From Candidatus Shapirobacteria bacterium (GTDB lineage: Bacteria; Patescibacteriota; Microgenomatia; UBA12405), in NCBI GenBank assembly GCA_041659325.1, contig JBAZYN010000004.1, positions 583-64,582 on the forward strand: a DNA stretch of 64,000 nt, written 5' to 3'. Below the pieces are notes generated by a model. The model was given only the letters and a program-made list of their open reading frames with translations. It was not told the origin of the DNA and did no database searches. Each line of letters opens with the position of its first letter. Positions within the stretch are counted from its first letter, which is position 1. The position numbers and the translations under genes are program-made. Below, piece by piece: positions 34,255 through 53,243 of the stretch.

Positions 34255-37032
34255 GTGGTGAAAAAGATCATCTTTTTTCTATTCCTGTGGCTTGGGTCAA
34301 CTTCTGATTTACAGGCCGCCGACCTCCAAAGCACCTATCTTCGTCTGGACAGAAACAAAACCGGTCTTAGCCCCGGAAAAGTCTTGGTAGTCACCAAAAC
34401 AACTTCATCGGCTACCGAAGATGGTGTCAGAATTACCGTCGGCACCGGTTGGACTATTAACACTAATGCTTCTGCTTTTTCAGTTTCTACCATAAATTTA
34501 CCCGAAGGAGTTTCTGCCTGGCCGGGGATAGACACTGCTGTCGCGGTCAACGGCCAAGCAATCACTTTTCCCGGTGTCGACCTGGCTCCGGGCGAATTTT
34601 ATGGCTTCTATATTACCGGTGGAATAGGCGTAAACGGCCAGGTTAGCAGCAGCAACTATGTTTGGGAGGTTGCCACTTTAAGCGGTGGATTAGCCGACGG
34701 TACCATAGAGGTTGGGGTGCCGGTTGTGGCCGCTGATTCAATCACGGTAACTGGAACTGTTCCCGCCAATCCCTCAGATTATCCGGTCAGTATTTCCTCG
34801 GACCTTACCGGAAACGCGTCACAAAACCAGACACTCAACTATCAGATAGATTATGGTTCTTTATCTGCCGCCATTACCAAACCTCTGACCATAAAAGCCG
34901 AGTGGAGTCGTGGTACTCTGGAGAACTTTCCTATCCCGACTCTGGATATACTTGATTATGTAATCGGTAGCGGTACCAGTGCTTACAATGGGGTAGAGCC
35001 GGTAATAGATCTGATTGACCGGACAATTACCTGGACAATTCCCGATTTCCCGACAAACACTTTAGGTCAGACTGTTAGTTTCAGTCTGCAGACAAACGAT
35101 CAATATACCGGTTCCAGCCTAGTTAATTTCGATGTCAGTGTCACCGTCACTGCCGGTAACATCACGGTTGCTACCGACACAATAAACCAATATTATCAAT
35201 ACAATCCGCCATATTTATCACCAACTCCGACCCCGACCTCAATCCCCACTCCCACTTCTGTTTCCACTCCGGCTCCGACCTCTACCTCCACTCCCGCAAT
35301 TACTCTCGCTCCCGGTATTCCCACGGCCACGTCCGCCCCTGCAGCAACCTCGACTCCGGTTCAAGGCCCGACTCCCACCCCAAAACCTTTTAGGGAAAAG
35401 CTCAAAATAGAGAAAGTAGAAATAATAAATTTGTCCTCAAACGAGGCTGGAATCAGGGTAGCTACCAATATCCCTCTTGATAAATTAATTTTGACATATG
35501 GTTTAACTCCGAAAAAAATTACTCAAAAAATTATATTTTTAAAGCCGGATAATTTCGAAATATTTTTACTAACCAACCTTAATCCCCAAAACCTATATTA
35601 TTTTCGTTTGGAAGCACAAGCCGATACCGATAGATTGTTTTCGGATATTTTTACTTTCAAAACTCCCGCCGTTTCTGATCTTCCCGAAGTTGTAAAATCC
35701 ACTCTACTAGCGAATAGTGACGGTAAGGTTTTATATGACGCCGCCAGAATAGACAAAGAAATCAATGATTATTTGGTAATTATTCCCAAAGCGGTTGAAT
35801 ATTCTATTCAATTCCAGGTCGATAAACACGATTTGGTAAAGCAGGCTACCCTGATATTAAAAAGCCGCCAGGTTTTGGGGATTAGTAGCGCCTATGGAGC
35901 GGAACCCGCCAGTAGTTTAACTGATTTAATCGAAATTAGACCCGGTTGGTTCATGGGAAGACTTTTAAGTCCTTCAGAAGTAAGCTTCTATGAAATGTCC
36001 GTCAGACTGTCGGGTATCAACGGCACCATAATAGAAAACAAGTTGGCCGACATGGAAATAATCGAGCCGATGCGAATTTTGGAGTTGGAATCCCTTGCTC
36101 CCATTGAATCCGCCAAAGTCGAAATTAGTTTGTATAATTCAAAAGAAAAAAGGTTTTTAATAATCCCCCCAAACACTCTGTTGTCAGAAAATCCCGTATT
36201 TTCAGAAACAGACGGTGAAGTGGCTTTGGTTCTGCCAAGGGGTAAATATCGGGCCAAAGTCACTGCTTTGGGTTATTCAGAAAAACAAACCGAGTTTGAA
36301 ATTAGCGCTGGTGGCGATTTAAAGCTACCGTCAATTTATCTAGAAAAAGACAAATTTAATTTATTGGTAGTTGGCAGATATTACTCTGGTACTTTCACAG
36401 ATGTTTGGCAATATTGTAAAAACAACCTGAAATATCTATTTTCCTCCGGAAGATTTTTCAATCTAGTCGCCCTGATAAACTTGATTCTGCTGGTTATTAA
36501 TACCACTATATTTTATAGAAATAGCCTAAAAACTAACATTTTCGGAGGCAAAAACCGCGACGACTATATAGATGGAAAAATAAATGTCTCTGGAGCCGAT
36601 ATCATTCTGATTGATGCTGAAGCCAGTAGGATCCTGGCCAAAACCAAAAGCAATTGGTTGGGGCGCTTCCGTTTCAAGCTCAAACCGGCCAAAAGATATA
36701 AGTTGTCTGCCTCCAAAAGCGGATACGAGACTTCCCCGTTCTTTGAATATGTTGGCGATGAGGGAATTTTAGCAGGCGATATTAAAATCAATCTGAAAAG
36801 ATCAGAAGACAAACAAAAACTCAAATATATCCTCAACGAGTGGTTCTACTGGGAAATTTCAGATTTATCTACGGGGGTTTTAAACATTTCAGTCTTGTTG
36901 GTCGAAATACTTTTTATTAATAAATTCGGTTGGTCGGCAACCGCTATATGGATATTAATTGGTATATTAAATTTAATCTTGTGGTTAGTTTATACTTACA
37001 GAAATGGCAATAAAGTGGTGGCAAAACCTTAA
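34255..37032 (+). CDS. Large surface protein (925 aa): signal peptide, N-domain shared with the 38138 protein, PT linker, CarboxypepD_reg-like domain, C-terminal TM helices
   Basis: The N-terminus LRLDRNKTGLSPGKVLVVTKTTSSATEDGVRITVG is homologous to the 38138 protein. PT linker at about 35220-35400. GKINVSGADIILID...GYETS fold. Two C-terminal hydrophobic helices. Confidence 0.6.
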   Translation: MVKKIIFFLFLWLGSTSDLQAADLQSTYLRLDRNKTGLSPGKVLVVTKTTSSATEDGVRITVGTGWTINTNASAFSVSTINLPEGVSAWPGIDTAVAVNGQAITFPGVDLAPGEFYGFYITGGIGVNGQVSSSNYVWEVATLSGGLADGTIEVGVPVVAADSITVTGTVPANPSDYPVSISSDLTGNASQNQTLNYQIDYGSLSAAITKPLTIKAEWSRGTLENFPIPTLDILDYVIGSGTSAYNGVEPVIDLIDRTITWTIPDFPTNTLGQTVSFSLQTNDQYTGSSLVNFDVSVTVTAGNITVATDTINQYYQYNPPYLSPTPTPTSIPTPTSVSTPAPTSTSTPAITLAPGIPTATSAPAATSTPVQGPTPTPKPFREKLKIEKVEIINLSSNEAGIRVATNIPLDKLILTYGLTPKKITQKIIFLKPDNFEIFLLTNLNPQNLYYFRLEAQADTDRLFSDIFTFKTPAVSDLPEVVKSTLLANSDGKVLYDAARIDKEINDYLVIIPKAVEYSIQFQVDKHDLVKQATLILKSRQVLGISSAYGAEPASSLTDLIEIRPGWFMGRLLSPSEVSFYEMSVRLSGINGTIIENKLADMEIIEPMRILELESLAPIESAKVEISLYNSKEKRFLIIPPNTLLSENPVFSETDGEVALVLPRGKYRAKVTALGYSEKQTEFEISAGGDLKLPSIYLEKDKFNLLVVGRYYSGTFTDVWQYCKNNLKYLFSSGRFFNLVALINLILLVINTTIFYRNSLKTNIFGGKNRDDYIDGKINVSGADIILIDAEASRILAKTKSNWLGRFRFKLKPAKRYKLSASKSGYETSPFFEYVGDEGILAGDIKINLKRSEDKQKLKYILNEWFYWEISDLSTGVLNISVLLVEILFINKFGWSATAIWILIGILNLILWLVYTYRNGNKVVAKP

Positions 37033-38071
37033 ATTAAAGTGGCTAATATTTTCCTTTCTTATTCTGCCCGCCAGTACCAATTACAAACTGGAGGGTTTTA
37101 GTCTTGGAAACGCCGGGGGAGAAGTAATAGGTTCATCAAGTTATGAAATGGTCGGAAGTGTGGGTGAACTTTCAAGTAACAGCTTGTCGGGGGAAAGTTA
37201 TGATTTGGGGGTGGGGCTGGCCTGGGTTCGGCAATCAAACGTCCCTCCTGCCCCGGCAATCACCAATCCCGATAATTATTACAACAAGCTTCATCTGGTA
37301 ATAAACCGGGGTGATAACCCTGCCGATACAAAATATGCAATCGCTATCAGTAGCGATGACTTTACCACTACCCAATATGTTAAAAACGATCACACAATCG
37401 GAGCCACTTTGGTTTTAACGGATTATCAGACATATACGGAATGGGGTGCCGCAACCGGTATCGATATTATTGGATTAACCCCCTCAACCACCTATTCAGT
37501 AAAAGTAAAAGCTATGCAGGGCAAGTTTACTGAAACTGATTTTGGGCCGTTGGCATCTGTGGCAACCGTAGACCTCGAGCTTACTTTCGATATTGACGTC
37601 TCGGCATCCGACACTGAAACGGCCTCACCCTACATCATTTCTTTGGGGGATTTAACCCCGGGAAGTGTTAAAAGTAGTACCGAAAAAATTTGGGTTGATA
37701 TAGGGACAAATGCTACAAATGGAGCAAGTGTTTTTGTTTATGGTCAAAATGGTGGGCTGTACAGTTTGTCAGCCGGGTCAACTATTGCCGCCATTAGCGG
37801 AAATTTGTCGGAACTTCCCAAAGGCTTTGGCTCCCAAGGGGTAGGGGCCACTCAAAATAGCGGCGGACCGATAAATATTTCCTCTCCTTACAATGTAAAC
37901 AATGATGTGGTTGGAATTACCGATACAACTATACGACCGATTTTTTTATCTGAAAACCCGGTTAATGCGGGAAGGGCTAGATTTTTGGTTAAGGCCAAAG
38001 TGGATATAACTACCCCGGCCGCCGATGACTACAGCGAAACTTTAACTGTAATCGCCGCGGCAAATTACTAG
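37004..38071 (+). CDS. Secreted surface-associated protein (paralogous C-terminal motif shared with the 38138 protein)
   Basis: N-terminal hydrophobic signal. The C-terminus ...AADDYSETLTVIAAANY matches ...AASDYSDTLTVVGAGTF. Confidence 0.5.
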   Translation: MAIKWWQNLKLKWLIFSFLILPASTNYKLEGFSLGNAGGEVIGSSSYEMVGSVGELSSNSLSGESYDLGVGLAWVRQSNVPPAPAITNPDNYYNKLHLVINRGDNPADTKYAIAISSDDFTTTQYVKNDHTIGATLVLTDYQTYTEWGAATGIDIIGLTPSTTYSVKVKAMQGKFTETDFGPLASVATVDLELTFDIDVSASDTETASPYIISLGDLTPGSVKSSTEKIWVDIGTNATNGASVFVYGQNGGLYSLSAGSTIAAISGNLSELPKGFGSQGVGATQNSGGPINISSPYNVNNDVVGITDTTIRPIFLSENPVNAGRARFLVKAKVDITTPAADDYSETLTVIAAANY

Positions 38072-38137: not shown

Positions 38138-39157
38138 ATGAAAAAAATAAAAGGCATTTTTTCTAGATGGAGTATCAGCTTAATTACCGCGATAACAATC
38201 TTCCTTGCTTTCGCCGCCACCGAGGTTAACGCAGCAAGTTTTTCCCACGCCTCCCTTCGCTACGACCGGATTAAAGCCGAGACCCTTTCCAGCCTTCAGG
38301 TGGTAATTGTTCCCGCGACAGTTGCAACCGAAGACAGAGTGGTCATAACCTTTGGCTCTGCCACCGTCGGTACCACCAACGCCACTTCGGTCACCAATAT
38401 ACCTACTGGCTCTGTAGCTCTTCCCGGCACTCTTTCTGCCGTAAGTGCCGGTACCACTATCGTTATTACTGGCGTTACCGATCTCACAGTCGGTACCACC
38501 TATGCTTTTAACCTGACAATCGGTGTCTCCACCCCGGCCGCAGGAACTGCAAACGATATTATTTCTACCCGAAGTGATGCTACTACCGTAATAGATCAAA
38601 CCACTGTCGCTTCAAGATATATCACCAACGATCAGATAGTTATCAACGCCGTCGTTCCCCCCTCTTTTAATTTTGTCTTAAGTGCCGGCAACACCGATAC
38701 TTTTACTGCTAATTTAAGTGGCACCACAGAAGTATCTACTTATGGTAATACGGTAACGGTTACAACAAATGCTCCAAGGGGATGGATCGCCTGGGTAAAA
38801 AGCGCCAATCAGGGTTTAGTTTCCCTGTCCACCGGTATCACTATTGCCACTACTGGAACCGTAAATGGTAGCCCCGACACGCTGACTGCCGGTGCTAATG
38901 GCTATGTCCTGGACGCCGATTTAACTAGCGATAATGGTACGGGTACAGGCACCGTAACTATCGCTCCCGAATACAACGGCGCTTCCGCCAAGGCCGGAGG
39001 AACTTTATCCGCTATTTTTCAGCCCTTTGCTTCATGTAACGGAACCACCGCCGGTGACGTTATCACCCTGATAGAAAGAGCCACGGTAACCACTATTTTA
39101 GCCGCTGCTTCGGATTATTCTGATACTCTAACGGTTGTTGGTGCGGGGACTTTTTAG
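38138..39157 (+). CDS. Secreted Thr/Gly/Ala-rich surface protein (N-domain shared with the 34255 protein, C-motif shared with the 37004 protein)
   Basis: Signal peptide ending ATEVNA. An SLRYDRIKAETLS...ATEDRVVITFG N-domain. A conserved C-terminal DYSDTLTV motif. Confidence 0.55.
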   Translation: MKKIKGIFSRWSISLITAITIFLAFAATEVNAASFSHASLRYDRIKAETLSSLQVVIVPATVATEDRVVITFGSATVGTTNATSVTNIPTGSVALPGTLSAVSAGTTIVITGVTDLTVGTTYAFNLTIGVSTPAAGTANDIISTRSDATTVIDQTTVASRYITNDQIVINAVVPPSFNFVLSAGNTDTFTANLSGTTEVSTYGNTVTVTTNAPRGWIAWVKSANQGLVSLSTGITIATTGTVNGSPDTLTAGANGYVLDADLTSDNGTGTGTVTIAPEYNGASAKAGGTLSAIFQPFASCNGTTAGDVITLIERATVTTILAAASDYSDTLTVVGAGTF

Positions 39158-39185: not shown

Positions 39186-40256
39186 TTGGTATCAATGATC
39201 AGCCACCGTTTCTTGGCAAAATTTTTTTTTGGTCTCATATTAGCCCCCTTGTTATTTTCCGGTCCAAAAGTCATTTGGGCCCAAACTACTGCCACCAACA
39301 GCGAACTGAATTTAATCACCTCGCCCCTGCCGATAAATTTGGTAACCGAGCCCGGGGCTACGGTTTCTGCTGATCTGAAAATTCAAAATGGTGGAATTGT
39401 CACCGAACAGCTAAAAGTTGAAGTCCTAAAATTCAACGCCTACGGAGATGACGGATACCCAAGGCTGATAGATCGTCAACCCGGTGACTCATTTCTGGAT
39501 TGGGTATCATTTTCGGAAAATTCTTTTGAACTTGCTCCCAAACAGTGGAAAACCATCACGGCCACTTTTTCCATCCCCCCCGATGCTGCTTTTGGCTATT
39601 ACTATGCTATAACTTTTTCCCGAGCCGAAAACATCAAGGCCGATGGTGGGGGACAAACTTCCATTACCGGCGCTACTGCTACCCTCATTCTTTTAGAGGT
39701 TCGGGTCCCAAATGCCAAAAGAGAGGTCGAAGTCATGGAGTTGTCCACCGATAAGAAAATTTATGAATTTTTACCGGCCAACTTTCAGATAAAACTGAAA
39801 AATAAAGGTAACGTTCATCTTTCTCCCCGCGGAAATATTTTTATCGACCGAGGCAACCAGCGTGATGTTGCCATTTTGGAAATAAATCCCGAAAAAGGTA
39901 GTCTTTTACCCGATTCAAACCGCGTTTTCAGCACTAAATGGGCTGATGGTTTTCCTCTTTACCGGGAAAAAGTTAAGGACGGAAAAGTAGTCTTAAACAA
40001 AAAAAATGAAAGCGAGAAAGTACTCGAGTGGGATTTTAGCCAAACTCACAAATTACGTTGGGGAAAATTTTCAGCCAAAATGCTTATTGTTTACGACAAC
40101 GGAGAAAGGGACATCCCCATCGAAGGTATTGTCAGTTTTTGGGTAATTCCCTGGCGGCTTGTCAGCGCCGCCGGAGCCATAATTCTTTTAACCATCGTCG
40201 GTTTATGGTCAACTTTGGGAAAAATACTCATGAAGTTAATCAACAGAAAAAAATGA
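39186..40256 (+). CDS. C-terminally TM-anchored cell-surface protein, paralog A (DUF916/DUF3324-like architecture)
   Basis: Signal peptide, the motif KNKGNVHLSPRGNIFID, a C-terminal TM (AGAIILLTIVGLW) and a basic tail. There is an ATGA overlap with the next gene. Confidence 0.55.
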   Translation: MVSMISHRFLAKFFFGLILAPLLFSGPKVIWAQTTATNSELNLITSPLPINLVTEPGATVSADLKIQNGGIVTEQLKVEVLKFNAYGDDGYPRLIDRQPGDSFLDWVSFSENSFELAPKQWKTITATFSIPPDAAFGYYYAITFSRAENIKADGGGQTSITGATATLILLEVRVPNAKREVEVMELSTDKKIYEFLPANFQIKLKNKGNVHLSPRGNIFIDRGNQRDVAILEINPEKGSLLPDSNRVFSTKWADGFPLYREKVKDGKVVLNKKNESEKVLEWDFSQTHKLRWGKFSAKMLIVYDNGERDIPIEGIVSFWVIPWRLVSAAGAIILLTIVGLWSTLGKILMKLINRKK

Positions 40257-41194
40257 TCAGCGGCCAAAAATGTTTTGGTTTAATATTTTTTTTAGGCCTA
40301 ATTGTTTCGCTCCTTCCGATCCGAGTTTCAGGTCAGCAGAAAAAAATCCAAACCGGTATAAGTATTGCTCCGCCGTTTACGGAATTAGTTTTTGACAAGC
40401 TTGACAAAGAAAAAAACTTTATCTTAACTATCACCAACCATGGCCACAAATCCGAAGTGTTCAGGCTGTCGGTAGTCGACTTAGGCGGGCTTGAAGAATC
40501 AGCCGGAGTTCCGTTTTTGGGGACAAAAAACTCAGAATTAGAAAAAAAATATTCCTTAAGTTCGTGGATAATTTTGGGTAAAGACGCTCTGGTAGTCGAT
40601 CCCCAAAAAAAAGTTGACATAAAAATCACCATCCAAAACAAAGAATCCTTGTCCCCGGGAGGTCATTACGGCGCCGTAATTGTTAAACTGGATAATTCCG
40701 ACAAATCCGGTACCGATGTCGTGGAGGTGAATCAAAATTTTGCCTCTCTTATCTTTGTCAAAAAAATCGGTGGCGAGATATATGACTTAAAGCTTAACCA
40801 AACAACAATCCAAAATTCTTATCTAAAGATACCGGACACAATAGAGCTCAGATTTCAAAATTCCGGCAATATCCATGTCGTCCCCCGCGGTACGCTGGAA
40901 TTAAAAGATCCCTCCGGCCGTTTGATCGCAAAAGGGGTTATAAACAAGGCCTCTTCCATTATCCTGCCCGAGTCCTTCCGAACTTATCAAAACAGAATCA
41001 ATCAGTTAAAACCGGCCTGGTTACCGGGAAAATACCACCTTACGGTCAATTATCGATTTGATGGGTCAGACCAAATATCATCTCTGACAAAAGATTACCT
41101 ATACCTAGGTTGGCTGCCGTATGCCGTCTTCGGCGTCACTATCGTCACTTGGTTTTGGTTTTTAAGGTCCAAAAAATCTAAAAAACAAGAATAA
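40253..41194 (+). CDS. C-terminally TM-anchored cell-surface protein, paralog B
   Basis: Signal peptide MISGQKCFGLIFFLGLIVSLLP, the motif QNSGNIHVVPRGTLELKD, a C-terminal TM and the tail RSKKSKKQE. The ORF-track start at 40058 is inside the upstream gene. Confidence 0.55.
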   Translation: MISGQKCFGLIFFLGLIVSLLPIRVSGQQKKIQTGISIAPPFTELVFDKLDKEKNFILTITNHGHKSEVFRLSVVDLGGLEESAGVPFLGTKNSELEKKYSLSSWIILGKDALVVDPQKKVDIKITIQNKESLSPGGHYGAVIVKLDNSDKSGTDVVEVNQNFASLIFVKKIGGEIYDLKLNQTTIQNSYLKIPDTIELRFQNSGNIHVVPRGTLELKDPSGRLIAKGVINKASSIILPESFRTYQNRINQLKPAWLPGKYHLTVNYRFDGSDQISSLTKDYLYLGWLPYAVFGVTIVTWFWFLRSKKSKKQE

Positions 41195-41312: not shown

Positions 41313-42626
41313 TTGACGTATATGGGAAAGTTTATTATAAAAATCTGGTCAATCTTCTGTTTAATAATTTTTTGGGTATATTTCTGTCTCTCACCTGTTT
41401 CCGCGGCAATTTACGAAAGGGTGAATTTTCAGGGTAAAGTAGTCAATAAATCCGTCGGCGAAACAGACGGCACCAATGTCCCCGACGGCGATTACGATTT
41501 TGTTTTCACCATTTACCCGGCCCTTAGCACCGGCTCTTCTCTTTGGACCGAGACCTGGGATAGTGGTACAGCTCAGGTAGCAGTTACTAGCGGAGTATTT
41601 AACGTTAATTTAGGCACCCAACTGACCTTTCCCGCCAATCTTTTTGAAAGTGATAGTTTATTTTTGGCCATAAATTTTAACGCCGATGGCGACATGACTC
41701 CCAGGATTCGGCTCACTTCTGTTCCCTATGCTTTTAGTGCCGGCAAAGTTGCCGGCTTAACCATAGATAGCATTGGAGTTACCCTTGACCAAAGTTTAGC
41801 TACTACCAATTCACCCACTTTTTCGGGTCTAAATATTGGCACCTCTCTGTCGGTTGCGGCCAATGTAAACGTCGGCGGCACCTTAATTTTTTCCGCTACC
41901 GGCGTAAATATCGACGCCGTCACCGCCCAAGGGTTAATTTTTCAGGGGAGGAATTCTTCCTCTTTTAACACCACTAGCGGTGACATTACTCTCAATCCTG
42001 CCGGTTCAGTCATAATCGGTACCGGCACCAGTACTTTTACCTTCAACCCTCTTTCCGGTCCGCTCTATTCAGGCTCGGCCCGACCTTCAAAAACAATCAG
42101 AATTTCACCGGAATACCCCGGAGCTTCAATGACTGCCGATGGCTCCACCGATATTGGTGGTACCATGACTTCCGACAACACCCTAAACGCCGGTGGCATC
42201 GGCTGGAAAAATTATTATCAGTGGTCATCCGGCAATGCTGCCTTACAGGACTATTCGGTTTTGGCCCGAGTTGCCCTTCCCTCTGATTTTGATACCTGGG
42301 AAACCGGCTCTTGTCCGGGAGCTGCCTGTGCTTTTGAAATAGAATTCCAAACCGGGGTCGGCACCACCGACGATAATTATATTTCTGTCGCCGTCAACAA
42401 TAACTCCGACACTCCCGGCACCGCCGTCTGTTCAATTGGCTCAACCGCCGCTACCGCCTGGACCTTAACTGGTTGCCCTGAAGCCACCTTAAATGATGGG
42501 TCTTCTTCAGAGTGGGATGCGGCCGGAGAAGCGGCCGTTGTTCGTATCAAATTGGCGGCAAAAAGTACCGAAAATGCCTTATCTCGGGTAGGGGACATCA
42601 TTTTAAGGTACAAGGCAAAATTCTAA
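41313..42626 (+). CDS. Secreted hypothetical surface protein
   Basis: N-terminal signal and a beta-rich Thr/Gly/Ser composition. A TAATG stop/start overlap with the giant gene. Confidence 0.5.
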   Translation: MTYMGKFIIKIWSIFCLIIFWVYFCLSPVSAAIYERVNFQGKVVNKSVGETDGTNVPDGDYDFVFTIYPALSTGSSLWTETWDSGTAQVAVTSGVFNVNLGTQLTFPANLFESDSLFLAINFNADGDMTPRIRLTSVPYAFSAGKVAGLTIDSIGVTLDQSLATTNSPTFSGLNIGTSLSVAANVNVGGTLIFSATGVNIDAVTAQGLIFQGRNSSSFNTTSGDITLNPAGSVIIGTGTSTFTFNPLSGPLYSGSARPSKTIRISPEYPGASMTADGSTDIGGTMTSDNTLNAGGIGWKNYYQWSSGNAALQDYSVLARVALPSDFDTWETGSCPGAACAFEIEFQTGVGTTDDNYISVAVNNNSDTPGTAVCSIGSTAATAWTLTGCPEATLNDGSSSEWDAAGEAAVVRIKLAAKSTENALSRVGDIILRYKAKF

Positions 42627-45600
42627 TGAAAATTTTTTCGCCCCTCCCTAAGTTAAAAAAAACCCTCTCGCTATTTCTCTTGACCGGCCTGGTATTTTTT
42701 TCCTTTTTATCTACCCCCACCCTTTTGGCCCAGGATGCGGCTCCTGCTATATCCGTAGACCCCGCTGTATCAATCTCTCCACCTTCCCCAGAGTCCTATT
42801 CTGATTCACCCGAAGCCAACAACTCAGCCAGACTTCGTCCTAGCTTTAAACTGGAAACTTACGACACCAATCCGGTTTTCAGTAAATCAAAACCTGAGTT
42901 TAAACTAGTCTCCGGCACCAAATTTAAACCAAGAATCAAGGTGTACAATAATTCAAAACAGGAAATCGATATTGAGCTCGTTGAAAAAGTCGACAAGGGC
43001 GATGTTGTTTATAGCTTCAATCAAGCCACAGAAATTCCCCCCGGTAAATATACAATCACATTTCAAGATGATCTCGGCGGCGAAATATCGAAAGATTTTT
43101 ACTGGGGAGTTTTGGCCATCAATTTCAACAAATCCGTTTATAACCCGCTGGAAAACGGTTACATTTCTCTTGCCGTTTTAGACGAAACCGGCGACATGGT
43201 CTGTGATGCCAAGTTAGCCCTGATTGTCGAAGAACCAGATGGTTCAGTCGAAGAGTTAACCACCGATGATGGCCGCATCAAGGTCAACCCCGAATGTCAG
43301 GTTCATGGCTTTACGGAAAAGCCGGATTATGAAACCGAATATGCTTTTAGTGAAAATCCGGGCACATACAAATTTCACCTTGTCGCCGAAACCAAAAATG
43401 GTTCTTATAGTATTACCGATCAGGTTCAGGTAGCCGAAAACTTACCTATCGAAGTCGACCGGGTTATGGCTACCCGCATTTATCCCCCCCACCCTTATAC
43501 TGCCACTATTAATCTAAAGGCAAATGAAGATTTTATCGGAATAGTCACGGAAACCGTCCCCTCAAGTTTCATTATCACCAAAGCCGCCAATACCGAAATT
43601 TTACCCTACAAAACCATAGTTGAAGACAAAAACTCAAAGACAAAAAAAATTACCTGGAATTTAGACCTAAAACCAGGCGAAGATGTCACTATCGGTTATC
43701 GATACGATATCCCCGATATCTCGCCCGAATTTTATCTGGTTGGGCCGATAAAGTTTACCGATTATAGCGGTACTGTTGATTTTTTTACCGAAACCCGTCA
43801 ATGGCAATTGGCGGCCGATGCCGTAGCTCCTGTAAAAATCCGGCAAGAAATTAATATTATTAACGGTTTAGTTACTGCCGCTGGGGTTGATGCCGCCATA
43901 GTAAATCTGGATACCGCCAAATATAACAGTGCCACTTATTATTTTGAAGTAATTGCCAAGGTCAGTGCCGGCACCTTAACCGTCAACCTCAGTACCGGAA
44001 ACACCAATACCGTTGGTATCGGTATCAGTGATACTAGCTTTGTCAGAGTTCGGTCGGCTTTTACCCCCGAAAGCGGTTCTTTTGACTACCGACTTAATTT
44101 AGTAAACGGGACCTCGCCACAGGTGAAAGCCGCCAGAATCATTATTTTACAAAGCGCCACTACTATTACTGCCACTCAAACCCAGATTGAAATCGGCAAT
44201 TTGGAAATCGGTTTATCCATGGCGACGACGGCTCCCCTTACCAGCCCAAAATATTGGAAATATGATTCAGCTTTGTGGGATGGGACAAAAACATTTGATA
44301 TCAGCGTTTCATATAAAGCCGGCGTGGGGGTCACGGCCGGTTCCCAAACTTTTACAGTAGCAGGTATCAATACTTTTACCCCACCTGGTGGCATAACCTC
44401 AGTCAAGGTCGAATGTTGGGGCGGCGGCGGCGCCGGTGGAAGTTCCAACACCACCACCGACGGTTGCGGTGGCGGTGGCGGTGGTGCCTATTCCAATAAA
44501 TTAAATGTGGGTGTCACAGCTGGAATTGGCTATACCGCTTTTGTCGGAGTCGGCGGTACCTATAGATCTCAAGCCAAAGGAGGCGATGGCGCCGCCAGCT
44601 ATTTTCGAAATAGCGTCGGCGTGACTGTTGTCTCGGCCGCCGGAGGAATCGGCGGCACTTCTCAAGCCAGTAGCAATCCGGGAGCCGGTGGAGCTGGCGG
44701 TAACTCCACCGTTGGTGTTGGAGATACCAAATGGAGCGGAGGAACAGGTGGTAGAGGCTATAATGCTTCGGCAGGGCAGGGAGGTCCGGGTGGTAGCTCA
44801 GCCGGAATTGGAACCACGGGCCGGTCTGGTCCGGATCCCTGGTCAACCAGAGTTGCCAGTGCCGGCCCTACTGGTAGTGGTATCGGCGGTAGTGGTGGCC
44901 CGGCTGGTAACAGCGGTGCAGCCCCGGCCAGTGGAAATGGCGGCGGCGGCGGCGGCTCCGGCGATGTGGCAACCAGTGTCGGTGGAAACGGCGCCGGTGG
45001 GAAAGTAGTAGTTACTTGGGCCGCAATAGATAACGCAGTTTCAATTTATCTTCAGGAAGACAACGGTTCTTTTGCCGGCTGGACAAATGTCGTCACTGTT
45101 TTAAGCGGTGGTACCGCCACCGTCCCGACTTCGGTGGGCATTACAAACTTTACCCCTACCACCGGTAGAAATTATCGACTCGTTGCCAATACTGGTCTCA
45201 GTCCTTTTGATATTTATAATGCCAAAATTATTGTTAATCAAACCAGTGCTACTACTATTGACAAGCTAGTTCCCCAATATTTGTTGCTAAATACAAAATC
45301 AACCACCACCGGCAGTGCTTTAGGTTATCAAAGTTTATGGACCACCGACGAATGGGGCCGGACTACCAATACCTATCTGCATGCCTTTGACTCCATCGGT
45401 GGCGGCACCACCGCCACTGTTAAGCTCGTTGATATTGATGCCGGAAATGCTGAATTAACCAATTCCGCCATTGGCGGGACAAATCAAGTAATTAGTAATG
45501 GCATAACAATGCCCACTTCCGGTCATCAAATAGATACCTGGCTGACCGCCGCCGGAACCGAAGTCGACGCTTCGAGAATTTTGGTTCAAGTTGACGTAAC

Positions 45601-48600
45601 GGCAGTTCAAAATCCGACCGTTGTTCTCAACAGTCTCGACAATGGCGCCACCACTACTGATACCACCCCGACTTTGGATTTTACCGGCACTAGTGCCTAC
45701 GGAGATAGTGTCAGATATAACATTCAGATAGCCACCAACGACCTATTTTCTTCTAGCATAATCACTCAAACCTCGGTTCTGTCTCAAGGCACCGAGACGG
45801 ACGCCAGTTCGTACGATACCGCCAGTATTTCCCCCGGTGCTAATAAATTAGTCCTTCTAGCCGTGGCCTCCCGGGTGGCTGGCGGCGGAAACAATACCCC
45901 TACCGCCAGTGGTGTTGGCATGAGCTGGGATTTAGTCACCACAGTTCAGGAACCCGGCAGCTGGAATAGGATTAGTCTTCTTCGAGCCATGAGTCCGTCG
46001 CCTTCTTCCGGGGCTATCACCATTTCTTTTGGTGGTCAAACTCAAACAGCTGTAAACTGGCAAATTTCCGAGTTTTCAAATGTTGATACTTCGGGGACAA
46101 ACGGTGCTAGCGCCATCGGTCAGTCACAAACCAACACCGGTGCTTCCGTTACTAGTCTCACCGTTACCTTGGGTGCTTTTCAAAGTACCAATAACGCCAC
46201 CTATGGGGCTATGATCTCTGAGGTCGCCTCTCCCATCAACCAGGGTACTGGATTTACTGAAGTTTATGATTTAAGTGTTACCGATAGCGCTCTGGAAACA
46301 GAGTGGAAAGATAGCAACGATACTTCGGTGGATTGGTCTTTTACTCAGGGCAGGGTCGGCGGAATTGCCGTCGAAATAAAAGCGGCTCCATCTGCCCTCG
46401 ATAAAGTTTCCGGTACCGATGTCGGTTTTTCCGGATCTCCGGATAATACAGATCCTTTTACATCCGCCCAAGCCGTAAATTATACCGTTGAGGAGGGAGA
46501 TAGCTTGGCGGTAGGCACTTATTACTGGCGAGTCAGAGGTATAGATCCAGATGGGAGCAATGCTTACGGCTCGTGGAGTGATACCCGTAATTTTGTGGTA
46601 AGCATGGCTGCCAATGTGACTATTTCGGGAAATATCTATACCACCGAAACCGCCACTGCCTACAACTGTTCATCCACCAACCTAACAGTTCGGGCCATAG
46701 TCGAGGGAGCCGGAGTCGGTACTACCGGTATTTGTACCTCCGGTGGTGGGGCATTTCTTATCCAAAATATCACCGTTGGTGATACCGGTCATGTAATTAC
46801 CTTATATTTAGACGGAGAATCAGAGAAAGCCACCTCCATTACCAAAGTTGCCAGCACCTCTATAGGATTTACCCTTCCCCTTTATCAAAACCGGGTATAT
46901 CTTAGTCACCAAAATGACGGGCCGATTACCAATGCAGATATCGATAAATATGATAGCGCCAACGATGCCGATATCCAATATACCTCAAACGGTGTCGGTC
47001 TCACCGTTACCCCGGGCTCCAAAATTGTTATCGCCCTTGGAAAAACCTATACTCCCGGCGGAAGTATTGACACCCCCTCAATCGGCATCGGTGGAACTTT
47101 CAACCCGGAGTCGAACACTGTTAATCTAACTGGAAGCGGCAGCAGCATCACCTGTACCGATGCCCCGGGGACAGTCATGCCTCTATGTAATAGTGGTACT
47201 TTTAACCAGTCAACCTCAACCATCAATTACAACGGGACTTCCGCTTCTGCCATCGCCGCTCTTACCTTCAATAATCTGGGTGTGGGTATTTCCTCCGAGG
47301 CGGGAGTCGGCACTACCTATACCTTTACCGGTAACGTCACAGTCGGCGGTATCTTCTCTATCGGAAATATCTTGTCATCAAATATCGATGTTGTAAATGC
47401 TTCCTCCCACACTCTTACTCTAACTCAGGCAGATACTCCGCTAAATGCTACTCCCAAGGGTGCTCTTGCTCCGGGAAGCTCGACTGTCGTTTACACTGCC
47501 TCCGCAGATACCAGCGTTGCGACTGTTGACTATTACAACCTTTCTCTGGCCCCTGCCTCAGGCACACCCACTTATACTCTTTTAAACGTTTGGGAATATA
47601 GAAGACCAATAGCAATTACCAATGCCTCGGGCGGGGACCTAACCGACTTTCAGGTTTCCTTTACTTTGGACACCACCGACAGTACTAGATTTCAGCCGGA
47701 TTGTGATGATATAAGAATCACCGACTCAAGTGGTATTACCATTCTTCCTCATTGGATCGAAGAAAACAATCCCGGTTGTGGCAATGCCTCTACCAAAATT
47801 TGGACCAAAGTTCCCTCTATTCCCACTGCCGGCACAACCATCTATGTTTATTACGGCAATCCCATTGCTTCATCATCGCAAAACGGTACGAGTGTTTTTG
47901 AGTTTTTCGACGATTTTAGTGGCGATAGCCTAGACACACAAAAATGGACAAAAGTTAATGGCTCAACTCCGGTTCTTGCCTCCGGCACCTTGGCCATTAC
48001 CGCCACCGCCGACCCGGGTAAATTAATTGCCTCTGCCGGCCCCAATGGCGACAACTACATTTTAAAAGCCAGATTTATGGTTACCGGCGGCTCTGCCGAC
48101 GATGAAAGGTTGGGTCTAAGCGTAAAAACCAATACCTCAAGCGGAGCTGGCTACAATCTGGTTTTTAGGGGCTTTACCAACCTGTCAACGGTTCAGTTTT
48201 TACATGACGCAGTTGAGTGGGGCAGCGCAGACACTGTCAATTGGGCCAAAGACACATATTATACCGAAGAAATTTATCATGACGGAACAAATGTCAAAGG
48301 TCGTTTTAACGACGGTTCCTGGTACAGTTGGCCCAGAAGCGGAATATCCGGCTATTTGGCGATAAATTTTGCTAGTTTTAACGGTACAACTAGTATCTGG
48401 GATTATGCTGTTATTAGGAAAGCGGCTTCAACTGAACCCTCCTCCTCCGTCCAGGCAGAACAGGGTGTAACCAACACTGATATATTAACCGTCCACAATG
48501 ATTTTTCTACTTCAGGCGCCGGTACCGTAACTGTCAATGTAGAGACAAACAACAGTGCCACCCTGGATATTAATGGGGATTTTACTCTGGCTTCCGGCGA

Positions 48601-51600
48601 TACCTTTCTGGCCCCTCCCACTACGTCTATAGCCGGCGGCTATACCAACAATGGTACCTTTACCGCCAATTCTGGAAAAGTTACTTTTGACGGAACCGGA
48701 AGCAATACCCTATCTGGTTATATGAATGTCGGATCTGGCTCAACCTCTCCTTTCTATAAAGTGGTCTTTAGCGGCATCGGTGGCAGTTGGACCATTGCCG
48801 ACCCCATAAAAATCGGAGCTACCAATGCTACCGATACCCTATTAATAAACGCCGGAGTTGTTACCTTGGGCAATGGAAACGGTGATGATATGGAGGTCGA
48901 TGGAAAAATGAATATCGGTTCTACTGTCGGTCTGGCAATTTTTCAAACCATGGATGGTCTTGCCCAGGGCAGTGTCATCAATCTTGATATCAACAGCAAT
49001 ACCGCTCCGTTTAATTGTACTAACTGTTTGGTTCAAGTAGGCACAGCCGACAACACCGCCCCCCAGGGGACTTTTGTCATCAATGAAAACACCAACCTTC
49101 GATTAAATTCTTTCTCCAGCATTCAGTCGGGTCTGGATATTTATGCCTCGGGGAAAATAACTATTCGGGGTCTTCAGTCAGACACCGGCGCTGATAGCGG
49201 CACCGACACTACTTCCGCCGCCACCAGAGAAAGCAAAGTGTGTGTTGTCAAACCCGGCTGGGAAAACGACAGCCACAATAATAAAAACCTAAGAATCACC
49301 TCCGGCCTTGCCTTTGGGAAAATATACACTATCTCGGACACTATTACCAACGATTCCGATTGTGCCTCCGATACTGATGAGTCGCTGACTATCAACGATA
49401 CTTCCGTTCCCTCCGGGGCTAGCACTGCCGTCGTAAGCTCAATCACCACCGTCTTATCGCAAAGATGGGTTTGTTCCAATGCCACCACATATATTTCCGC
49501 GGATAATAAAGAGATAGGCAGATATCTACACGATCTGTCGGGTGTCACCGGTTATTACAAGATTGTCGACTCCACCAATAATGATGCTACCAACTGTTCG
49601 GGTAATGATAGGTTCAGGATTATGGCTGATCCTGCTGCTGAATTTGCCAGTCTGCAAACCAGTGATACTTTTAAAATTGTCGATGGTATTAGGTCCGATG
49701 ACACCTTTGAAATAATTGATTATGCCTCTATTACGGCCCAAAATGGTGTCGCCTGTAACTCATCGTTCAACGGCTATATCCTGGGAAGAAACCGTTCAGA
49801 AGTAGATATCCAATATTCAGATATTTGCAATATGGGAGCTTCCGATGAATATAAAACCGGAATCATGCTTGGCTACTCTTCGGCGGGCACCGACGGCTCT
49901 CTGCAAAACGAAGGGTTTGCAATTTCCAAGTCAAGGATAAGAAATGGTCACAATGGAATTGTTTTTTATTATGCGGACAATAATTCCGGAGCCAAAGGTA
50001 TCTCCGACAATTATATTTCAGGACATGCATCTTTCGGAATTGACTTTTACTACGGTGCCGACAACAATAGTGTTACTTCAAACACTGTTTGTGGCAATTT
50101 TCAAAACATTTATTTTAGGAATAATTCAAATAACAACACCGTATCTTCTAATATTATTTGTGAAGCCACCACCTTTGCCGGAATTGTTTTATATGATTCG
50201 CTAAGCGGTAATATCGTCTCTTCAAATACTATTTACAACAACGCCCAACATGGTATCTATACTGGCACTAACGCCATAGACAACACCTTTTCATCAAACA
50301 CCGTCTTCGGCAACCAATTAAGTGGAATTACTCTTGACAGTGCCCACATGACCAAAGTATCGGGCAACACGGTAAACAACTCTCAATATCATGGGATATA
50401 TATAATCGGAGGGTCAAAGGGCAATATCATTTCGTCAAACAACGTTTTTGGTCAAGACGCTGGTATTTATCTTTATAATTCTGCCAACAACAATCTTTTG
50501 TACACCAATAATTCATACAACAATGCCTACGGTTTACAATCGGGTTCTAACTCGACAAACAATGTATTTTTCGGAAATGATTATTACTCTAATACTAGCT
50601 ATGGTAGCTATAATAATGACGGTTTTAGTAATAATGTTTTCTATAATGATTCGTTTTATGGCAATATATTCGGCTGGATTGACAATGGTGCCTCAAATTT
50701 AAATAACATCCTTATAAACAATAGTTTCGGAGTCGGAACAGAAAATGGTTTCTACGATATCTATCAAATAGGATCTGCTCCCCATTCTACGCATTTATAT
50801 AGCTCGACTGTTAATTCCACCGTTGAGGCCGACGGAATTATCTACCCCGGCTCATCAATTATCTCCCGCTCTCACGATGGAGTAGCCGGTGCTACCAAAA
50901 TCTGGGGAGAATATTCCACTTCATCAAATAACTCCGAAACGCCACAGGATGAAGGGTTAGAAAGATATAATTATGCCGATTCCTCCTGGCCCGACTCAAT
51001 TACCGACCCGGGGTTTTCCGGTATCGGAACCTCAGACACCGATCTAAATCTTGGCTTCGCCGGAGGTACCTTAGGCGGGGGGACTTCAGCCGCCTTTGTC
51101 TACCGGGTTTACTGCACTGTCACCAACTGTGTCACCTCCCCCAACTCGTGGGGGGTTGAAAGAGATGGGATAGGTTTGGGTACCTCCGCCTCTAGCGGCG
51201 TTGGCTATACCGACCCTGGCACCAATATCTCGTTTAAAATCGATGATTCCGGAACAGATTTTGCCCTGGGTGATACCTACACCTTTGTTGCCTTCAGGGG
51301 TAGTACTGACACCAATACTCAAAAAACTATAACAATGGCCCAGGATGGGGATTTAATAAATGTTGGTGCCGGTACTACTCTCCGGGCAATCGGGGTCGGC
51401 GGTAGCCACACCTTGATCACCCGTGGTGGATCGGGCGGCTACCACATTAATGTCGCCGGAACCCTTGATGCTAGCTACTATACTTTAAGTTATTTAGGAG
51501 GAACCGACGGAAATTTAGGGCTTGATTTACAAAGTGGTTCTCTGATTACTAATTTAGCCAACGGTGTCTTTGATAATTTCCAAGATGTCGGATCATCGGA

Positions 51601-52656: not shown

Positions 52657-52666
52657 TCTTGTCTAC

Positions 52667-53218: not shown

Positions 53219-53243
53219 AACGATTTTGCAAAAAAACGCATAA

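What the first reader, a model, noticed from the sequence alone, without database searches (positions are those of the whole stretch)
39186..41194. Tandem paralogs with C-terminal TM anchors and a conserved N-x-G-N-[VI]-H-x-x-P-R-G motif
Both proteins have the same layout: signal peptide, about 300 aa of beta-rich sequence, then a single C-terminal TM helix with a Lys/Arg tail. They share KNKGNVHLSPRGNIFID and QNSGNIHVVPRGTLELKD. The second gene starts inside the stop of the first (ATGA). The architecture matches DUF916/DUF3324-type C-terminally anchored partners of secreted surface proteins. This is an inference, not a computed match.
Basis: partly seen in the sequence, partly recalled or inferred. 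Interest (0 to 1): 0.6.

Follow-up and report, generated by a model that had tools for sequence, protein, structure and literature searches.

The report
Membrane-anchored pilus-chaperone-like paralogs in CPR
Two adjacent genes of a Candidate Phyla Radiation bacterium encode related, membrane-tethered two-domain Ig-like proteins that most likely hold and assemble the secreted fibre (pilus) subunits encoded just upstream; this kind of protein was described recently, so the find is real but not fundamentally new.

Summary
Genes A (39195-40256) and B (40253-41194) are distant paralogs: BLASTP E 6e-10, profile-profile E 2e-23. Each has an N-terminal signal-like segment, two confidently predicted beta-sandwich domains (pLDDT about 88), a C-terminal hydrophobic helix and a Lys/Arg tail. 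All 138 homologs examined share this layout. The N-x-G-N-[VI]-H-x-x-P-R-G motif is conserved in both families.

The DUF916/DUF3324 (WxLIP) reading is partly right. Neither window protein hits these Pfam models. However, 64 of 74 B homologs and 27 of 64 A homologs hit PF06030 (DUF916) in register, mostly below threshold. Foldseek puts E. faecium WxLIP structures and chaperone-usher chaperones (CfaA, CsuC, FimC, PapD) among the top PDB matches. DUF3324 and WxL partner domains were never detected.

The pair sits in an operon conserved across CPR lineages: p355, p339, A (one or two copies), B. The secreted neighbours share modules in a tip/shaft/base pattern, and p355 shares an N-terminal module with PamT. 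The best reading is PamC/PamD-like membrane-anchored strand-complementing chaperones of a CPR pilus (2026 preprint). Orthology to M. amalyticus PamC/PamD could not be tested. I rate it a new member of a known kind, of moderate interest.

The parts
39195..40256 (+). Gene A (353 aa from ATG 39195; TTG 39186 is an alternative start). Layout: signal-like N-terminus, two beta-sandwich domains, C-terminal TM helix, basic tail. Identical to NCBI WC841_05835, Candidatus Shapirobacteria MAG.
   Evidence: P0001 100% identity; 1437 homologs, top hits 50-66% identical; AF2 pLDDT 87.8; Foldseek: WxLIP and CfaA/CsuC chaperones.
40253..41194 (+). Gene B (313 aa from ATG 40253, ATGA overlap with A; the alternative ATG 40205 gives the 329 aa of NCBI WC841_05840). 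Distant paralog of A with the same layout, lacking a roughly 31-residue insert that A carries in domain 2.
   Evidence: AF2 pLDDT 88.8; Foldseek: WxLIP 9i1y E 1.4e-10; CfaA, CsuC, FimC, PapD, Caf1M.
39195..39281 (+). Predicted signal peptide of A, residues 1-29, probable cleavage VIWA|Q.
   Evidence: Hydrophobic segment. A29 is nearly invariant in the family. AF2 helix 5-21. The cleavage site is inferred; no dedicated predictor was run.
40253..40333 (+). Predicted signal peptide of B, about residues 1-27, probable cleavage RVSG|Q.
   Evidence: Kyte-Doolittle 2.32 for residues 7-25. AF2 helix 3-20. The cleavage site is inferred.
39429..39467 (+). Conserved loop in domain 1 of A, residues 79-91 (KFxAYGxxGxPxL). 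Candidate partner-binding or donor segment.
   Evidence: K79, F80, G87 and P89 are invariant, yet the AF2 block for residues 81-90 has mean pLDDT 65.
40478..40522 (+). Conserved loop in domain 1 of B, residues 76-90 (D-F-G-S-L-D-E-S-G-G-V-A-F-L-G in the family). Candidate donor strand or hairpin.
   Evidence: D76 and G85 are invariant and most other positions are at least 90% conserved. Mean pLDDT is only 61-70 for residues 81-100. It lies inside the stretch that matches PF06030 in homologs.
39801..39833 (+). Motif NKGNVHLSPRG in A, residues 203-213. It joins the first two beta-strands of domain 2.
   Evidence: strands 195-203 and 212-219.
40859..40891 (+). Motif NSGNIHVVPRG in B, residues 203-213, at the same structural position as in A.
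   Evidence: strands 196-203 and 211-218; aligned to the A motif by hhalign.
40158..40256 (+). C-terminal TM helix of A (about residues 322-346) plus basic tail KLINRKK and the stop codon. The helix follows the last beta-strand directly, with no linker.
   Evidence: strand 306-317, helix 320-352. Invariant F315 and P319 and nearly invariant W316, W320 and R321 sit at the strand/helix junction.
41114..41194 (+). C-terminal TM helix of B (about residues 288-304, aromatic-rich) plus basic tail RSKKSKKQE and the stop codon.
   Evidence: (helix 288-312).
38138..39157 (+). p339: secreted two-module protein (NTD plus CTD). Candidate shaft subunit and client of A/B.
   Evidence: NTD is related to the p925 NTD (BLASTP E 6e-9; hhalign 99.4%, 2.1e-21). 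CTD is related to the p355 CTD (E 9e-8; hhalign 99.1%, 4.5e-19). Found upstream of A in 62/65 loci. The C-terminal residue is F or Y in 78/78.
37004..38071 (+). p355: secreted protein with a PamT-like N-terminal module, a weak FnIII region and the CTD. Candidate tip subunit: it has the CTD but not the p339-type NTD.
   Evidence: NCBIfam NF058579 CPR_pilus_PamT is matched by 29/57 family members, best E 2.8e-10, over model positions 21-83 of 241 where the range was reported. CTD shared with p339. Upstream of A in 56/61 loci.
34255..37032 (+). p925: signal peptide, p339-type NTD, Pro/Thr/Ser-rich linker, CarboxypepD_reg domain and C-terminal hydrophobic segments. Candidate membrane-anchored base. 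Found only in the Shapirobacteria-like subset of loci.
   Evidence: NTD hmm E 2.2e-30; strong matches in L020, L023, L049, L072.
41313..51934 (+). Downstream co-directional genes: p437 (41313 or 41322 to 42626) and a 3102-aa surface protein (42626-51934; Gly_rich_2, DUF2341, beta-helix/NosD). Possible cargo or adhesin. Their link to A/B is by synteny only.

Best explanation
A and B are paralogous type-I membrane proteins. After Sec export and signal-peptide cleavage, two Ig-like beta-sandwich domains sit directly on the outer face of the cytoplasmic membrane, held by a C-terminal TM helix with a cytoplasmic Lys/Arg tail.

They belong to the same superfamily or architecture as Firmicutes WxLIP (DUF916) and as the PamC/PamD chaperones proposed for the CPR Pam pilus. 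I propose that they work as membrane-tethered strand-complementing chaperones. As the secreted operon proteins p355 and p339 emerge from SecYEG, A or B binds their shared C-terminal domain, which ends in an invariant aromatic residue. Binding would use a conserved segment of domain 1 that is flexible when unbound. This keeps the subunit assembly-competent until the conserved N-terminal module of the next subunit takes over. That next subunit is another p339 (motif YVRLDR) or, in this lineage, the membrane-anchored p925. The product would be an usher-less fibre with p355 at the tip, p339 as the shaft and p925 at the base.

Shown here: paralogy, topology elements, fold, family conservation, the distant PF06030 link, structural similarity to WxLIP and chaperone-usher chaperones, the conserved operon, and module sharing among neighbours.

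Inferred: physical interaction, strand complementation, polymerisation and subunit order.
For: - Paralogy.
- Two beta-sandwich domains plus terminal helices at pLDDT about 88.
- Family-wide signal-like N-terminus and TM-plus-basic tail, 64/64 and 74/74.
- No linker between the last strand and the TM helix. This puts the ectodomain at the membrane surface where Sec substrates emerge.
- PF06030 (WxLIP_PGBD) hits in 64/74 B and 27/64 A homologs, in register, one above the gathering score.
- Foldseek PDB: WxLIP 9i1y/9i25 and many chaperone-usher chaperones (CfaA, CsuC, DraB, FimC, Caf1M, PapD, SafB) at E 1e-10 to 1e-7, aligned over both domains.
- WxLIP is predicted to donate a beta-strand that completes the partner's sandwich (PMC10599100).
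- PamC/PamD are described as PapD/FimC-like chaperones with a C-terminal TM helix (preprint).
- The most conserved stretch of domain 1 is modelled with low confidence, as expected for a segment that orders on binding.
- Operon conservation in GTDB genomes: B follows A in 65/70 loci, p339 lies upstream in 62/65, p355 in 56/61.
- The neighbours are modular in a tip/shaft/base pattern.
- Their C-terminus is F or Y in 141/141.
- The N-terminal module of p355 is homologous to PamT in 29/57 members, best E 2.8e-10.
- A carries a roughly 31-residue insert with extra strands relative to B. This parallels the reported PamD versus PamC difference.
Against:
- Foldseek TM-scores are low (0.3-0.5). Generic two-Ig-domain proteins (Vpr fibril, RbmA, CEP192, ciliary proteins) score similarly, so the fold evidence is not specific.
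- Profile searches against PDB sequences find nothing.
- DUF3324 was not detected.
- NCBIfam gave no Pam model hit for Saccharibacteria A, B or p339 homologs. p355 matches PamT only over about 60 residues at 34 bits, against a cut-off of 240. The operon is therefore probably not orthologous to the M. amalyticus pam operon.
- M. amalyticus PamC/PamD sequences could not be obtained.
- The chaperone role of PamC/PamD is itself only an AlphaFold-based proposal in a preprint.
Confidence: 0.55

Rival explanations
1. Static WxLIP-type anchor. A and B bind the secreted neighbours permanently, by strand complementation or otherwise, and simply tether them to the membrane or cell surface. No polymer forms and no subunit is handed over.
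For: - The only sequence-family link is to WxLIP_PGBD.
- The published WxLIP model is a stable complex that holds WxL proteins on the wall (PMC10599100).
- PDB 9i25 is a WxLIP bound to a long WxL protein.
- The large downstream proteins (p437 and the 3102-aa protein) could be displayed cargo.
Against: - No WxL domain was detected in 117 homologs of the neighbours.
- The NTD/CTD module logic (CTD only, NTD plus CTD, NTD plus TM) is what a head-to-tail polymer predicts.
- p355 shares a module with a pilus tip protein.
- With no stalk between the Ig domains and the TM helix, A and B seem too short to display cargo beyond the envelope.
Confidence: 0.22
2. PamR/RbmA-like tether or terminator. One or both proteins are the membrane-anchored last subunit of the fibre (two FnIII-like domains plus a TM helix), not a chaperone.
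For: - V. cholerae RbmA is among the top Foldseek hits: rank 3 for A (E 2.7e-9) and rank 16 for B.
- PamR is described as RbmA-like with a C-terminal TM helix and a mass of 32.8 kDa, similar to B.
Against: - RbmA alignments have lower TM-scores (TMt 0.29-0.34, rmsd 16-19 A) than the chaperones (TMt about 0.38-0.52) and mostly lower than WxLIP (0.37-0.44).
- A and B lack the p339/p925-type NTD and the YxRLDR N-terminal motif that would plug into a CTD.
- In this lineage p925 already supplies an NTD plus membrane anchor.
Confidence: 0.1
3. Unrelated surface Ig-like proteins. A and B are envelope scaffolds, adhesins or peptidoglycan/S-layer binders in their own right. Their position next to p339/p355 would reflect only a shared surface-protein gene island.
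For: - Fn3_5, NPCBM_assoc and CBM_4_9-type weak Pfam matches dominate for the A family.
- The fold hits include many non-chaperone Ig-domain proteins.
Against: - The gene order p355, p339, A, B is kept across Moranbacteria-, Shapirobacteria-, Saccharibacteria- and Parcubacteria-labelled genomes, with overlapping or near-abutting genes.
- A is unusually conserved for a CPR surface protein: 43-64% identity across the 79 loci, which include Saccharibacteria. That argues for a housekeeping assembly role rather than a host-facing adhesin.
Confidence: 0.08

Closest known systems
PamC / PamD, proposed membrane-anchored chaperones of the CPR Pam pilus (Ca. Mycosynbacter amalyticus; bioRxiv 10.64898/2026.03.03.709456)
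   Same: - CPR host and Sec signal peptide.
- Two beta-sandwich domains resembling PapD/FimC, with a C-terminal TM helix.
- Two paralogs per operon, of about 36-37 kDa, one with an extra hairpin or insert.
- Encoded next to secreted two-domain Ig-like subunits.
- The p355 neighbour shares an N-terminal module with PamT.
   Different: - Sequence relatedness to PamC/PamD could not be tested.
- No NCBIfam Pam model matches Saccharibacteria relatives of A, B or p339.
- Gene order differs. Here it is base?-tip-shaft-A-B. In M. amalyticus it is QHN43268-B-R-D-E-A-T.
- This operon is common in genomes labelled Moranbacteria and Parcubacteria, which the preprint does not name among its Pam-rich classes.
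- It is probably a sister system rather than the same operon.
WxLIP (DUF916/PF06030 plus DUF3324/PF11797 plus TM helix) of Firmicutes WxL/Csc clusters; PDB 9i1y, 9i25
   Same: - Same length class (313-356 aa here, 337-365 aa for WxLIP).
- Signal peptide, two Ig-like domains and a C-terminal TM helix.
- The N-domain gives in-register PF06030 matches in most homologs.
- Foldseek aligns both domains.
- Encoded beside secreted partner proteins.
- A flexible conserved segment in domain 1 corresponds in concept to the WxLIP hairpin predicted to complete the WxL sandwich.
   Different: - Matches are below the Pfam threshold for all but one homolog, and absent for the two window proteins.
- DUF3324 is not detected, and the NQIDKxxxYFDLK signature was not seen.
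- The neighbours are not WxL-domain proteins.
- The host is CPR, not Firmicutes.
- Domain 2 carries the family-specific N-x-G-N-V-H-x-x-P-R-G motif.
Periplasmic chaperones of chaperone-usher pili (PapD, FimC, Caf1M, CfaA, CsuC)
   Same: - Two Ig-like domains, with many Foldseek hits at E 1e-10 to 1e-7 over both domains.
- Proposed donor-strand complementation of subunits whose C-terminal strand ends in a conserved aromatic residue.
   Different: - No sequence similarity: no PapD Pfam match and no PDB sequence hit.
- A and B are membrane-anchored rather than soluble.
- There is no usher and no outer membrane.
- The conserved cleft residues (Arg8 and Lys112 of PapD) could not be mapped.

Membership tests
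WxLIP (DUF916-DUF3324-TMH) | N-terminal PGBD domain matching Pfam PF06030 (DUF916) | tested here: inconclusive
   The window proteins give no hit at E<=1. Homologs do: 64/74 B members (best 1.2e-6; one at 29.0 bits against a cut-off of 27.3; model positions 25-120 of 121) and 27/64 A members (best 1.6e-3). This is superfamily-level homology, not membership by Pfam's threshold.
WxLIP (DUF916-DUF3324-TMH) | C-terminal HBD domain matching Pfam PF11797 (DUF3324) | tested here: not met
   PF11797 is absent from the full tables for the two window proteins and eight B homologs, and from the 25 most-matched families of each family scan (138 homologs at E<=1). There is only a marginal collinear match of the B profile to E. 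faecium WxLIP3 HBD peptides (E 0.009 for a single comparison, 1 bit).
WxLIP (DUF916-DUF3324-TMH) | Signal peptide plus two perpendicular Ig-like domains plus C-terminal TM helix | tested here: met
   AF2 models, hydropathy across the families and Foldseek to 9i1y/9i25 over 245-301 alignment columns. The interdomain angle was not compared.
WxLIP (DUF916-DUF3324-TMH) | Located in a cluster with at least two WxL-domain proteins | tested here: not met
   No WxL Pfam match in the window neighbours, nor in 60 p339 or 57 p355 homologs at E<=1.
WxLIP (DUF916-DUF3324-TMH) | Conserved NQIDKxxxYFDLK sequence near the N-terminus of the PGBD | tested here: not met
   The family consensus N-termini are G-x-T-x-SP-x-FQEI (B) and LVTSPLPINLVTEPG (A). 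No NQIDK-like signature is present.
Pam pilus chaperones PamC/PamD (CPR) | PapD/FimC-like two-domain fold with Sec signal peptide and C-terminal TM helix | tested here: met
   definition taken from the preprint.
Pam pilus chaperones PamC/PamD (CPR) | Sequence homology to WP_260763277.1 / WP_260763284.1 | not testable with these tools
   The M. amalyticus sequences could not be retrieved. They are not in the top 120 hits of three homolog searches. NCBIfam returned no PamC/PamD model for Saccharibacteria A/B homologs, but I do not know whether such models exist.
Pam pilus chaperones PamC/PamD (CPR) | Encoded in an operon with Pam pilins (NTD, linker, truncated Ig-like CTD) and the PamT tip | tested here: inconclusive
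   The neighbours have an NTD/CTD modular design. The p355 family matches the PamT model, at positions 21-83 where a range was reported (29/57 members; 34 bits against a cut-off of 240 for the Saccharibacteria homolog in L065). No match to any PamA/B/E model was found, and the folds of p339 and p355 were not predicted.
Chaperone-usher periplasmic chaperones (PapD family) | Pfam PapD_N / PapD_C sequence match | tested here: not met
   No such Pfam hit appears in any returned table: full tables for the window proteins and eight B homologs, and the 25 most-matched families per family scan. There is also no hit of either profile to any PDB chaperone sequence.
Chaperone-usher periplasmic chaperones (PapD family) | Cognate outer-membrane usher in the operon | tested here: not met
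   No usher-like gene was found among the operon ORFs. CPR bacteria lack an outer membrane (established knowledge).

The most novel reading that the evidence does not exclude
The A/B families, Firmicutes WxLIP and CPR PamC/PamD would form one ancient superfamily of membrane-anchored strand-donating chaperones. They would build usher-less, donor-strand-linked surface fibres in bacteria without an outer membrane.

On this reading the operon here (p355, p339, A, B, with or without p925) is a second CPR fibre system. It would be more widespread than the published Pam pilus and not orthologous to it, occurring in genomes labelled Moranbacteria, Parcubacteria, Shapirobacteria and Saccharibacteria. 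Firmicutes WxL clusters might also be reinterpreted as assembly systems of the same type. The Pam preprint does not mention WxL or DUF916.
Probability: 0.3. Interest if true: 0.7.

Novelty: new member of a known kind. Interest (0 to 1): 0.42.

Why it matters
CPR bacteria are mostly uncultured epibionts, and their host attachment depends on surface filaments. This pair of genes marks an operon that is highly conserved across several CPR lineages. The B-family profile finds 7061 representatives at 50% identity (E<=1e-3), 821 of them at E<=1e-30. None of the hits that carry a source name has a functional name.

If A and B are membrane-tethered chaperones, three things follow:
- They give a sequence handle for finding usher-less pili in CPR metagenomes.
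- They nominate p339 and p355 as fibre subunits for cryo-EM or cryo-ET.
- They link the Firmicutes WxL/WxLIP system to chaperone-usher-like assembly.

If the system is simply the already proposed Pam machinery in another lineage, the value is annotation: two large families of hypothetical proteins receive a function.

Tried and rejected
- Direct Pfam and NCBIfam scans of A and B gave only weak Fn3_5 matches and no DUF916, DUF3324, PapD or Pam model.
- Profile HMMs of both families, and P0145 alone, against all PDB sequences gave nothing relevant. Profiles of p339 and p355 against the PDB gave only weak FnIII or chance hits, and no PamA/PamB entry.
- I spent the third homolog search on a Saccharimonadia-specific B profile to capture M. 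amalyticus PamC/PamD. No hit was labelled M. amalyticus. The preprint supplement holds no sequences.
- I tried to obtain a genuine WxLIP sequence from the WxLIP paper's supplement. Only tryptic peptides were available. Their match to the B profile is collinear but marginal and I give it little weight.
- The promoter and terminator scan of 33.5-43 kb found no more sites than shuffled sequence. The operon is inferred from gene spacing and synteny only.
- I considered a cleaved C-terminal sorting signal (LPXTG or PEP-CTERM type) and rejected it as less likely. The conserved FWVxPWR residues form the last beta-strand and the start of the helix, not a linker motif. No sortase or exosortase gene is in the operon. 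WxLIP and PamC/PamD have the same anchor. This was not tested with a dedicated predictor.
Full report
**What is there**

The window matches a 70-kb contig of a Candidatus Shapirobacteria (CPR/Patescibacteria) MAG. The two proteins are 100% identical to NCBI WC841_05835 and WC841_05840, both annotated as hypothetical. Gene A runs 39195-40256 (353 aa; a TTG at 39186 would add three codons). Gene B runs 40253-41194 (313 aa). The ATGA overlap is present. NCBI starts B at an upstream in-frame ATG (40205, 329 aa), but the family N-terminal consensus fits 40253 better.

Yes.
- BLASTP of A against B gives 22% identity over 195 residues, E 6e-10.
- Profiles built from 64 A homologs and 74 B homologs align over 277 columns at 99.5% probability, E 2.2e-23.
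- AlphaFold2 with these alignments gives confident models (mean pLDDT 87.8 and 88.8). Each has an N-terminal helix, two all-beta domains and a long C-terminal helix that begins right after the last strand.
- A C-terminal hydrophobic segment followed by at least two Lys/Arg is present in every one of the 138 homologs. An N-terminal hydrophobic segment is present in 135 of them.
- The motif N-x-G-N-[VI]-H-x-x-P-R-G occurs exactly twice in the six-frame translation of the window, at residue 203 of each protein. It is kept in 48/64 A homologs and 67/74 B homologs. It joins the first two strands of domain 2.

**Family and fold**

Neither window protein matches DUF916, DUF3324, PapD or any NCBIfam model; only Fn3_5 appears, at E about 0.02.

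At family level the picture changes.
- PF06030 (WxLIP_PGBD, formerly DUF916) is the most frequently matched Pfam family for B homologs: 64/74, best E 1.2e-6. One member scores above the gathering threshold, and matches are always in register over model positions about 25-120 of 121.
- PF06030 is also matched by 27/64 A homologs, although Fn3_5 dominates there at 63/64.
- PF11797 (DUF3324) appears in none of the returned tables.

Foldseek against the PDB returns three groups among the best hits:
- E. faecium WxLIP crystal structures 9i1y and 9i25 (E 1.4e-10 for B, 5e-9 for A).
- A long series of chaperone-usher chaperones: CfaA, CsuC, DraB, FimC, Caf1M, PapD, SafB.
- Generic tandem-Ig proteins such as the Vpr fibril, RbmA and CEP192.

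**Context**

Using the A profile I fetched 79 loci from GTDB species representatives. Their record titles name Moranbacteria, Shapirobacteria, Saccharibacteria and Parcubacteria, plus some that look mis-titled. Synteny is strong:
- B follows A in 65 of 70 loci with room downstream.
- A p339 homolog lies upstream in 62 of 65.
- A p355 homolog lies upstream in 56 of 61.
- A is tandemly duplicated in 27 of 73.

The neighbours are modular.
- The N-terminal domain of p339 is homologous to the N-terminal domain of the 925-aa upstream protein (hhalign 99.4%, E 2e-21). That protein ends in hydrophobic membrane segments.
- The C-terminal domain of p339 is homologous to the C-terminal domain of p355 (99.1%, E 4.5e-19). 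p355 lacks the p339-type N-domain.
- Both CTD-bearing families end in Phe or Tyr in 141 of 141 sequences.
- The mature N-terminus of p339 carries an invariant R-x-D-R motif (YVRLDR), which recurs in p925.
- No WxL domain is detectable in 117 homologs.
- The only curated family that any neighbour matches is NCBIfam CPR_pilus_PamT. It is hit by 29/57 p355 homologs (best E 2.8e-10). Where a range was reported the match covered only about 60 N-terminal positions, and the one Saccharibacteria homolog scored in detail reached 34 bits against a cut-off of 240.

**Literature**

A 2026 preprint (10.64898/2026.03.03.709456) solved two CPR pilins, PamA and PamB. They have an Ig-like NTD and CTD and assemble by donor-strand exchange. 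From AlphaFold models the authors proposed that PamC and PamD are the assembly chaperones, that PamT is the tip, and that the TM-anchored PamR is the tether. PamC and PamD are PapD/FimC-like but carry a C-terminal TM helix.

A 2023 paper (PMC10599100) defined WxLIP as DUF916 plus DUF3324 plus a TM helix. It predicted that a flexible hairpin of DUF916 inserts a strand into the WxL partner.

The preprint does not mention WxL or DUF916.

**Interpretation**

A and B have the architecture that both papers describe, in a CPR genome, next to secreted Ig-like proteins. The modules of those neighbours follow a tip (CTD only), shaft (NTD plus CTD) and base (NTD plus membrane anchor) logic.

Two further features fit a chaperone role. 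The most conserved stretch of domain 1 is the part of that domain AlphaFold models with least confidence, as expected for a segment that orders on partner binding. In the B family it reads D-F-G-S-L-D-E-S-G-G-V-A-F-L-G. The absence of any stalk between the Ig domains and the TM helix places the proteins at the membrane surface, where Sec substrates emerge.

I therefore favour membrane-tethered strand-complementing chaperones for an usher-less fibre (confidence about 0.55). The rivals are a static WxLIP-like anchor (0.22), a PamR/RbmA-like tether (0.10) and an unrelated surface Ig protein (0.08).

**Limits**

- I could not obtain the M. amalyticus PamC/PamD sequences, so orthology is untested.
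- Several results suggest a sister system rather than the same operon. No Pam model hit was returned for Saccharibacteria A, B or p339 homologs. The gene order differs. The operon is common in Moranbacteria-labelled genomes.
- No complex prediction was possible.
- The chaperone role of PamC/PamD is itself a prediction.

**Verdict**

The pair is a new, unannotated and very widespread member of a recently recognised kind. The B-family profile finds 7061 representatives at 50% identity (E<=1e-3). Interest is moderate.

Noticed in passing
window 34255-37032 (+): A 925-aa protein with this layout: signal peptide, a p339-type N-terminal module (hmm E 2e-30), a Pro/Thr/Ser-rich linker, a CarboxypepD_reg domain and three hydrophobic segments near the C-terminus. 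Its 3' end overlaps the p355 start by 29 nt. Strong homologs occur only in the Shapirobacteria-like loci L020, L023, L049 and L072. It may be a membrane-anchored fibre base.
   Followed up: partly
window 37004-38071 and 38138-39157 (+); alignments A4 and A5: The p339 and p355 families always end in Phe or Tyr (141/141). They share a C-terminal D-Y-x-[DE]-T-L-T-V motif. p339 also has an invariant R-x-D-R (YVRLDR) immediately after its signal peptide. These look like acceptor and donor elements of a strand-exchange polymer, but no structure was predicted.
   Followed up: partly
window 42626-51934 (+): A 3102-aa secreted protein with Gly_rich_2, DUF2341 and a right-handed beta-helix/NosD region. 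Its ATG overlaps the stop codon of the preceding 437-aa gene by one base. Large, weakly related proteins occupy the same position in many loci. It may correspond to the 'tail fibre-like' neighbour mentioned in the Pam preprint.
   Followed up: partly
window 51970-54137 (+): Downstream co-directional genes: a 228-aa protein with an N-terminal TM segment and a LytR_C domain (conserved in synteny in many loci), a 183-aa TM protein, and a 297-aa Acetyltransf_6 (FemAB-like GNAT) protein. This suggests a link to cell-envelope biogenesis.
   Followed up: no
loci L073:11010-12365, L076:12074-13483, L078:2176-3531: Some Saccharibacteria B homologs carry tails of roughly 125-145 aa, rich in Lys and Pro, after the TM helix. 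The tails would be cytoplasmic if the predicted topology is right. Their function is unknown.
   Followed up: no
loci L002-L003, L008-L009, L011-L012, L023, L052, L067, L079 and others: Many GTDB record titles for contigs carrying this CPR-type operon read 'uncultured Bdellovibrionales', 'Gammaproteobacteria', 'Burkholderiaceae' or 'Limnocylindria'. These are probably mislabelled MAG titles rather than evidence that the operon occurs outside CPR.
   Followed up: no
27 of 73 loci, e.g. L002:9968-12123, L003:8858-11026: The A gene is tandemly duplicated (A-A-B) in about a third of loci. In L070 the order is A-B-A. The copy number of A does not track the copy number of p339.
   Followed up: partly
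window 33694-34170 (-): A divergently oriented 158-aa protein with an Arg/Gly/Asp-rich N-terminus and a CxxC...CxxC zinc-ribbon motif lies immediately upstream of the operon. It was not characterised.
   Followed up: no
preprint supplement Table S1: The mass-spectrometry table labels QHN42421.1 (119 kDa) as pamC. The operon neighbour QHN43268.1 (36.5 kDa, listed as a hypothetical protein) has the size expected for a PamC-like chaperone. This may be a labelling inconsistency in the preprint.
   Followed up: no
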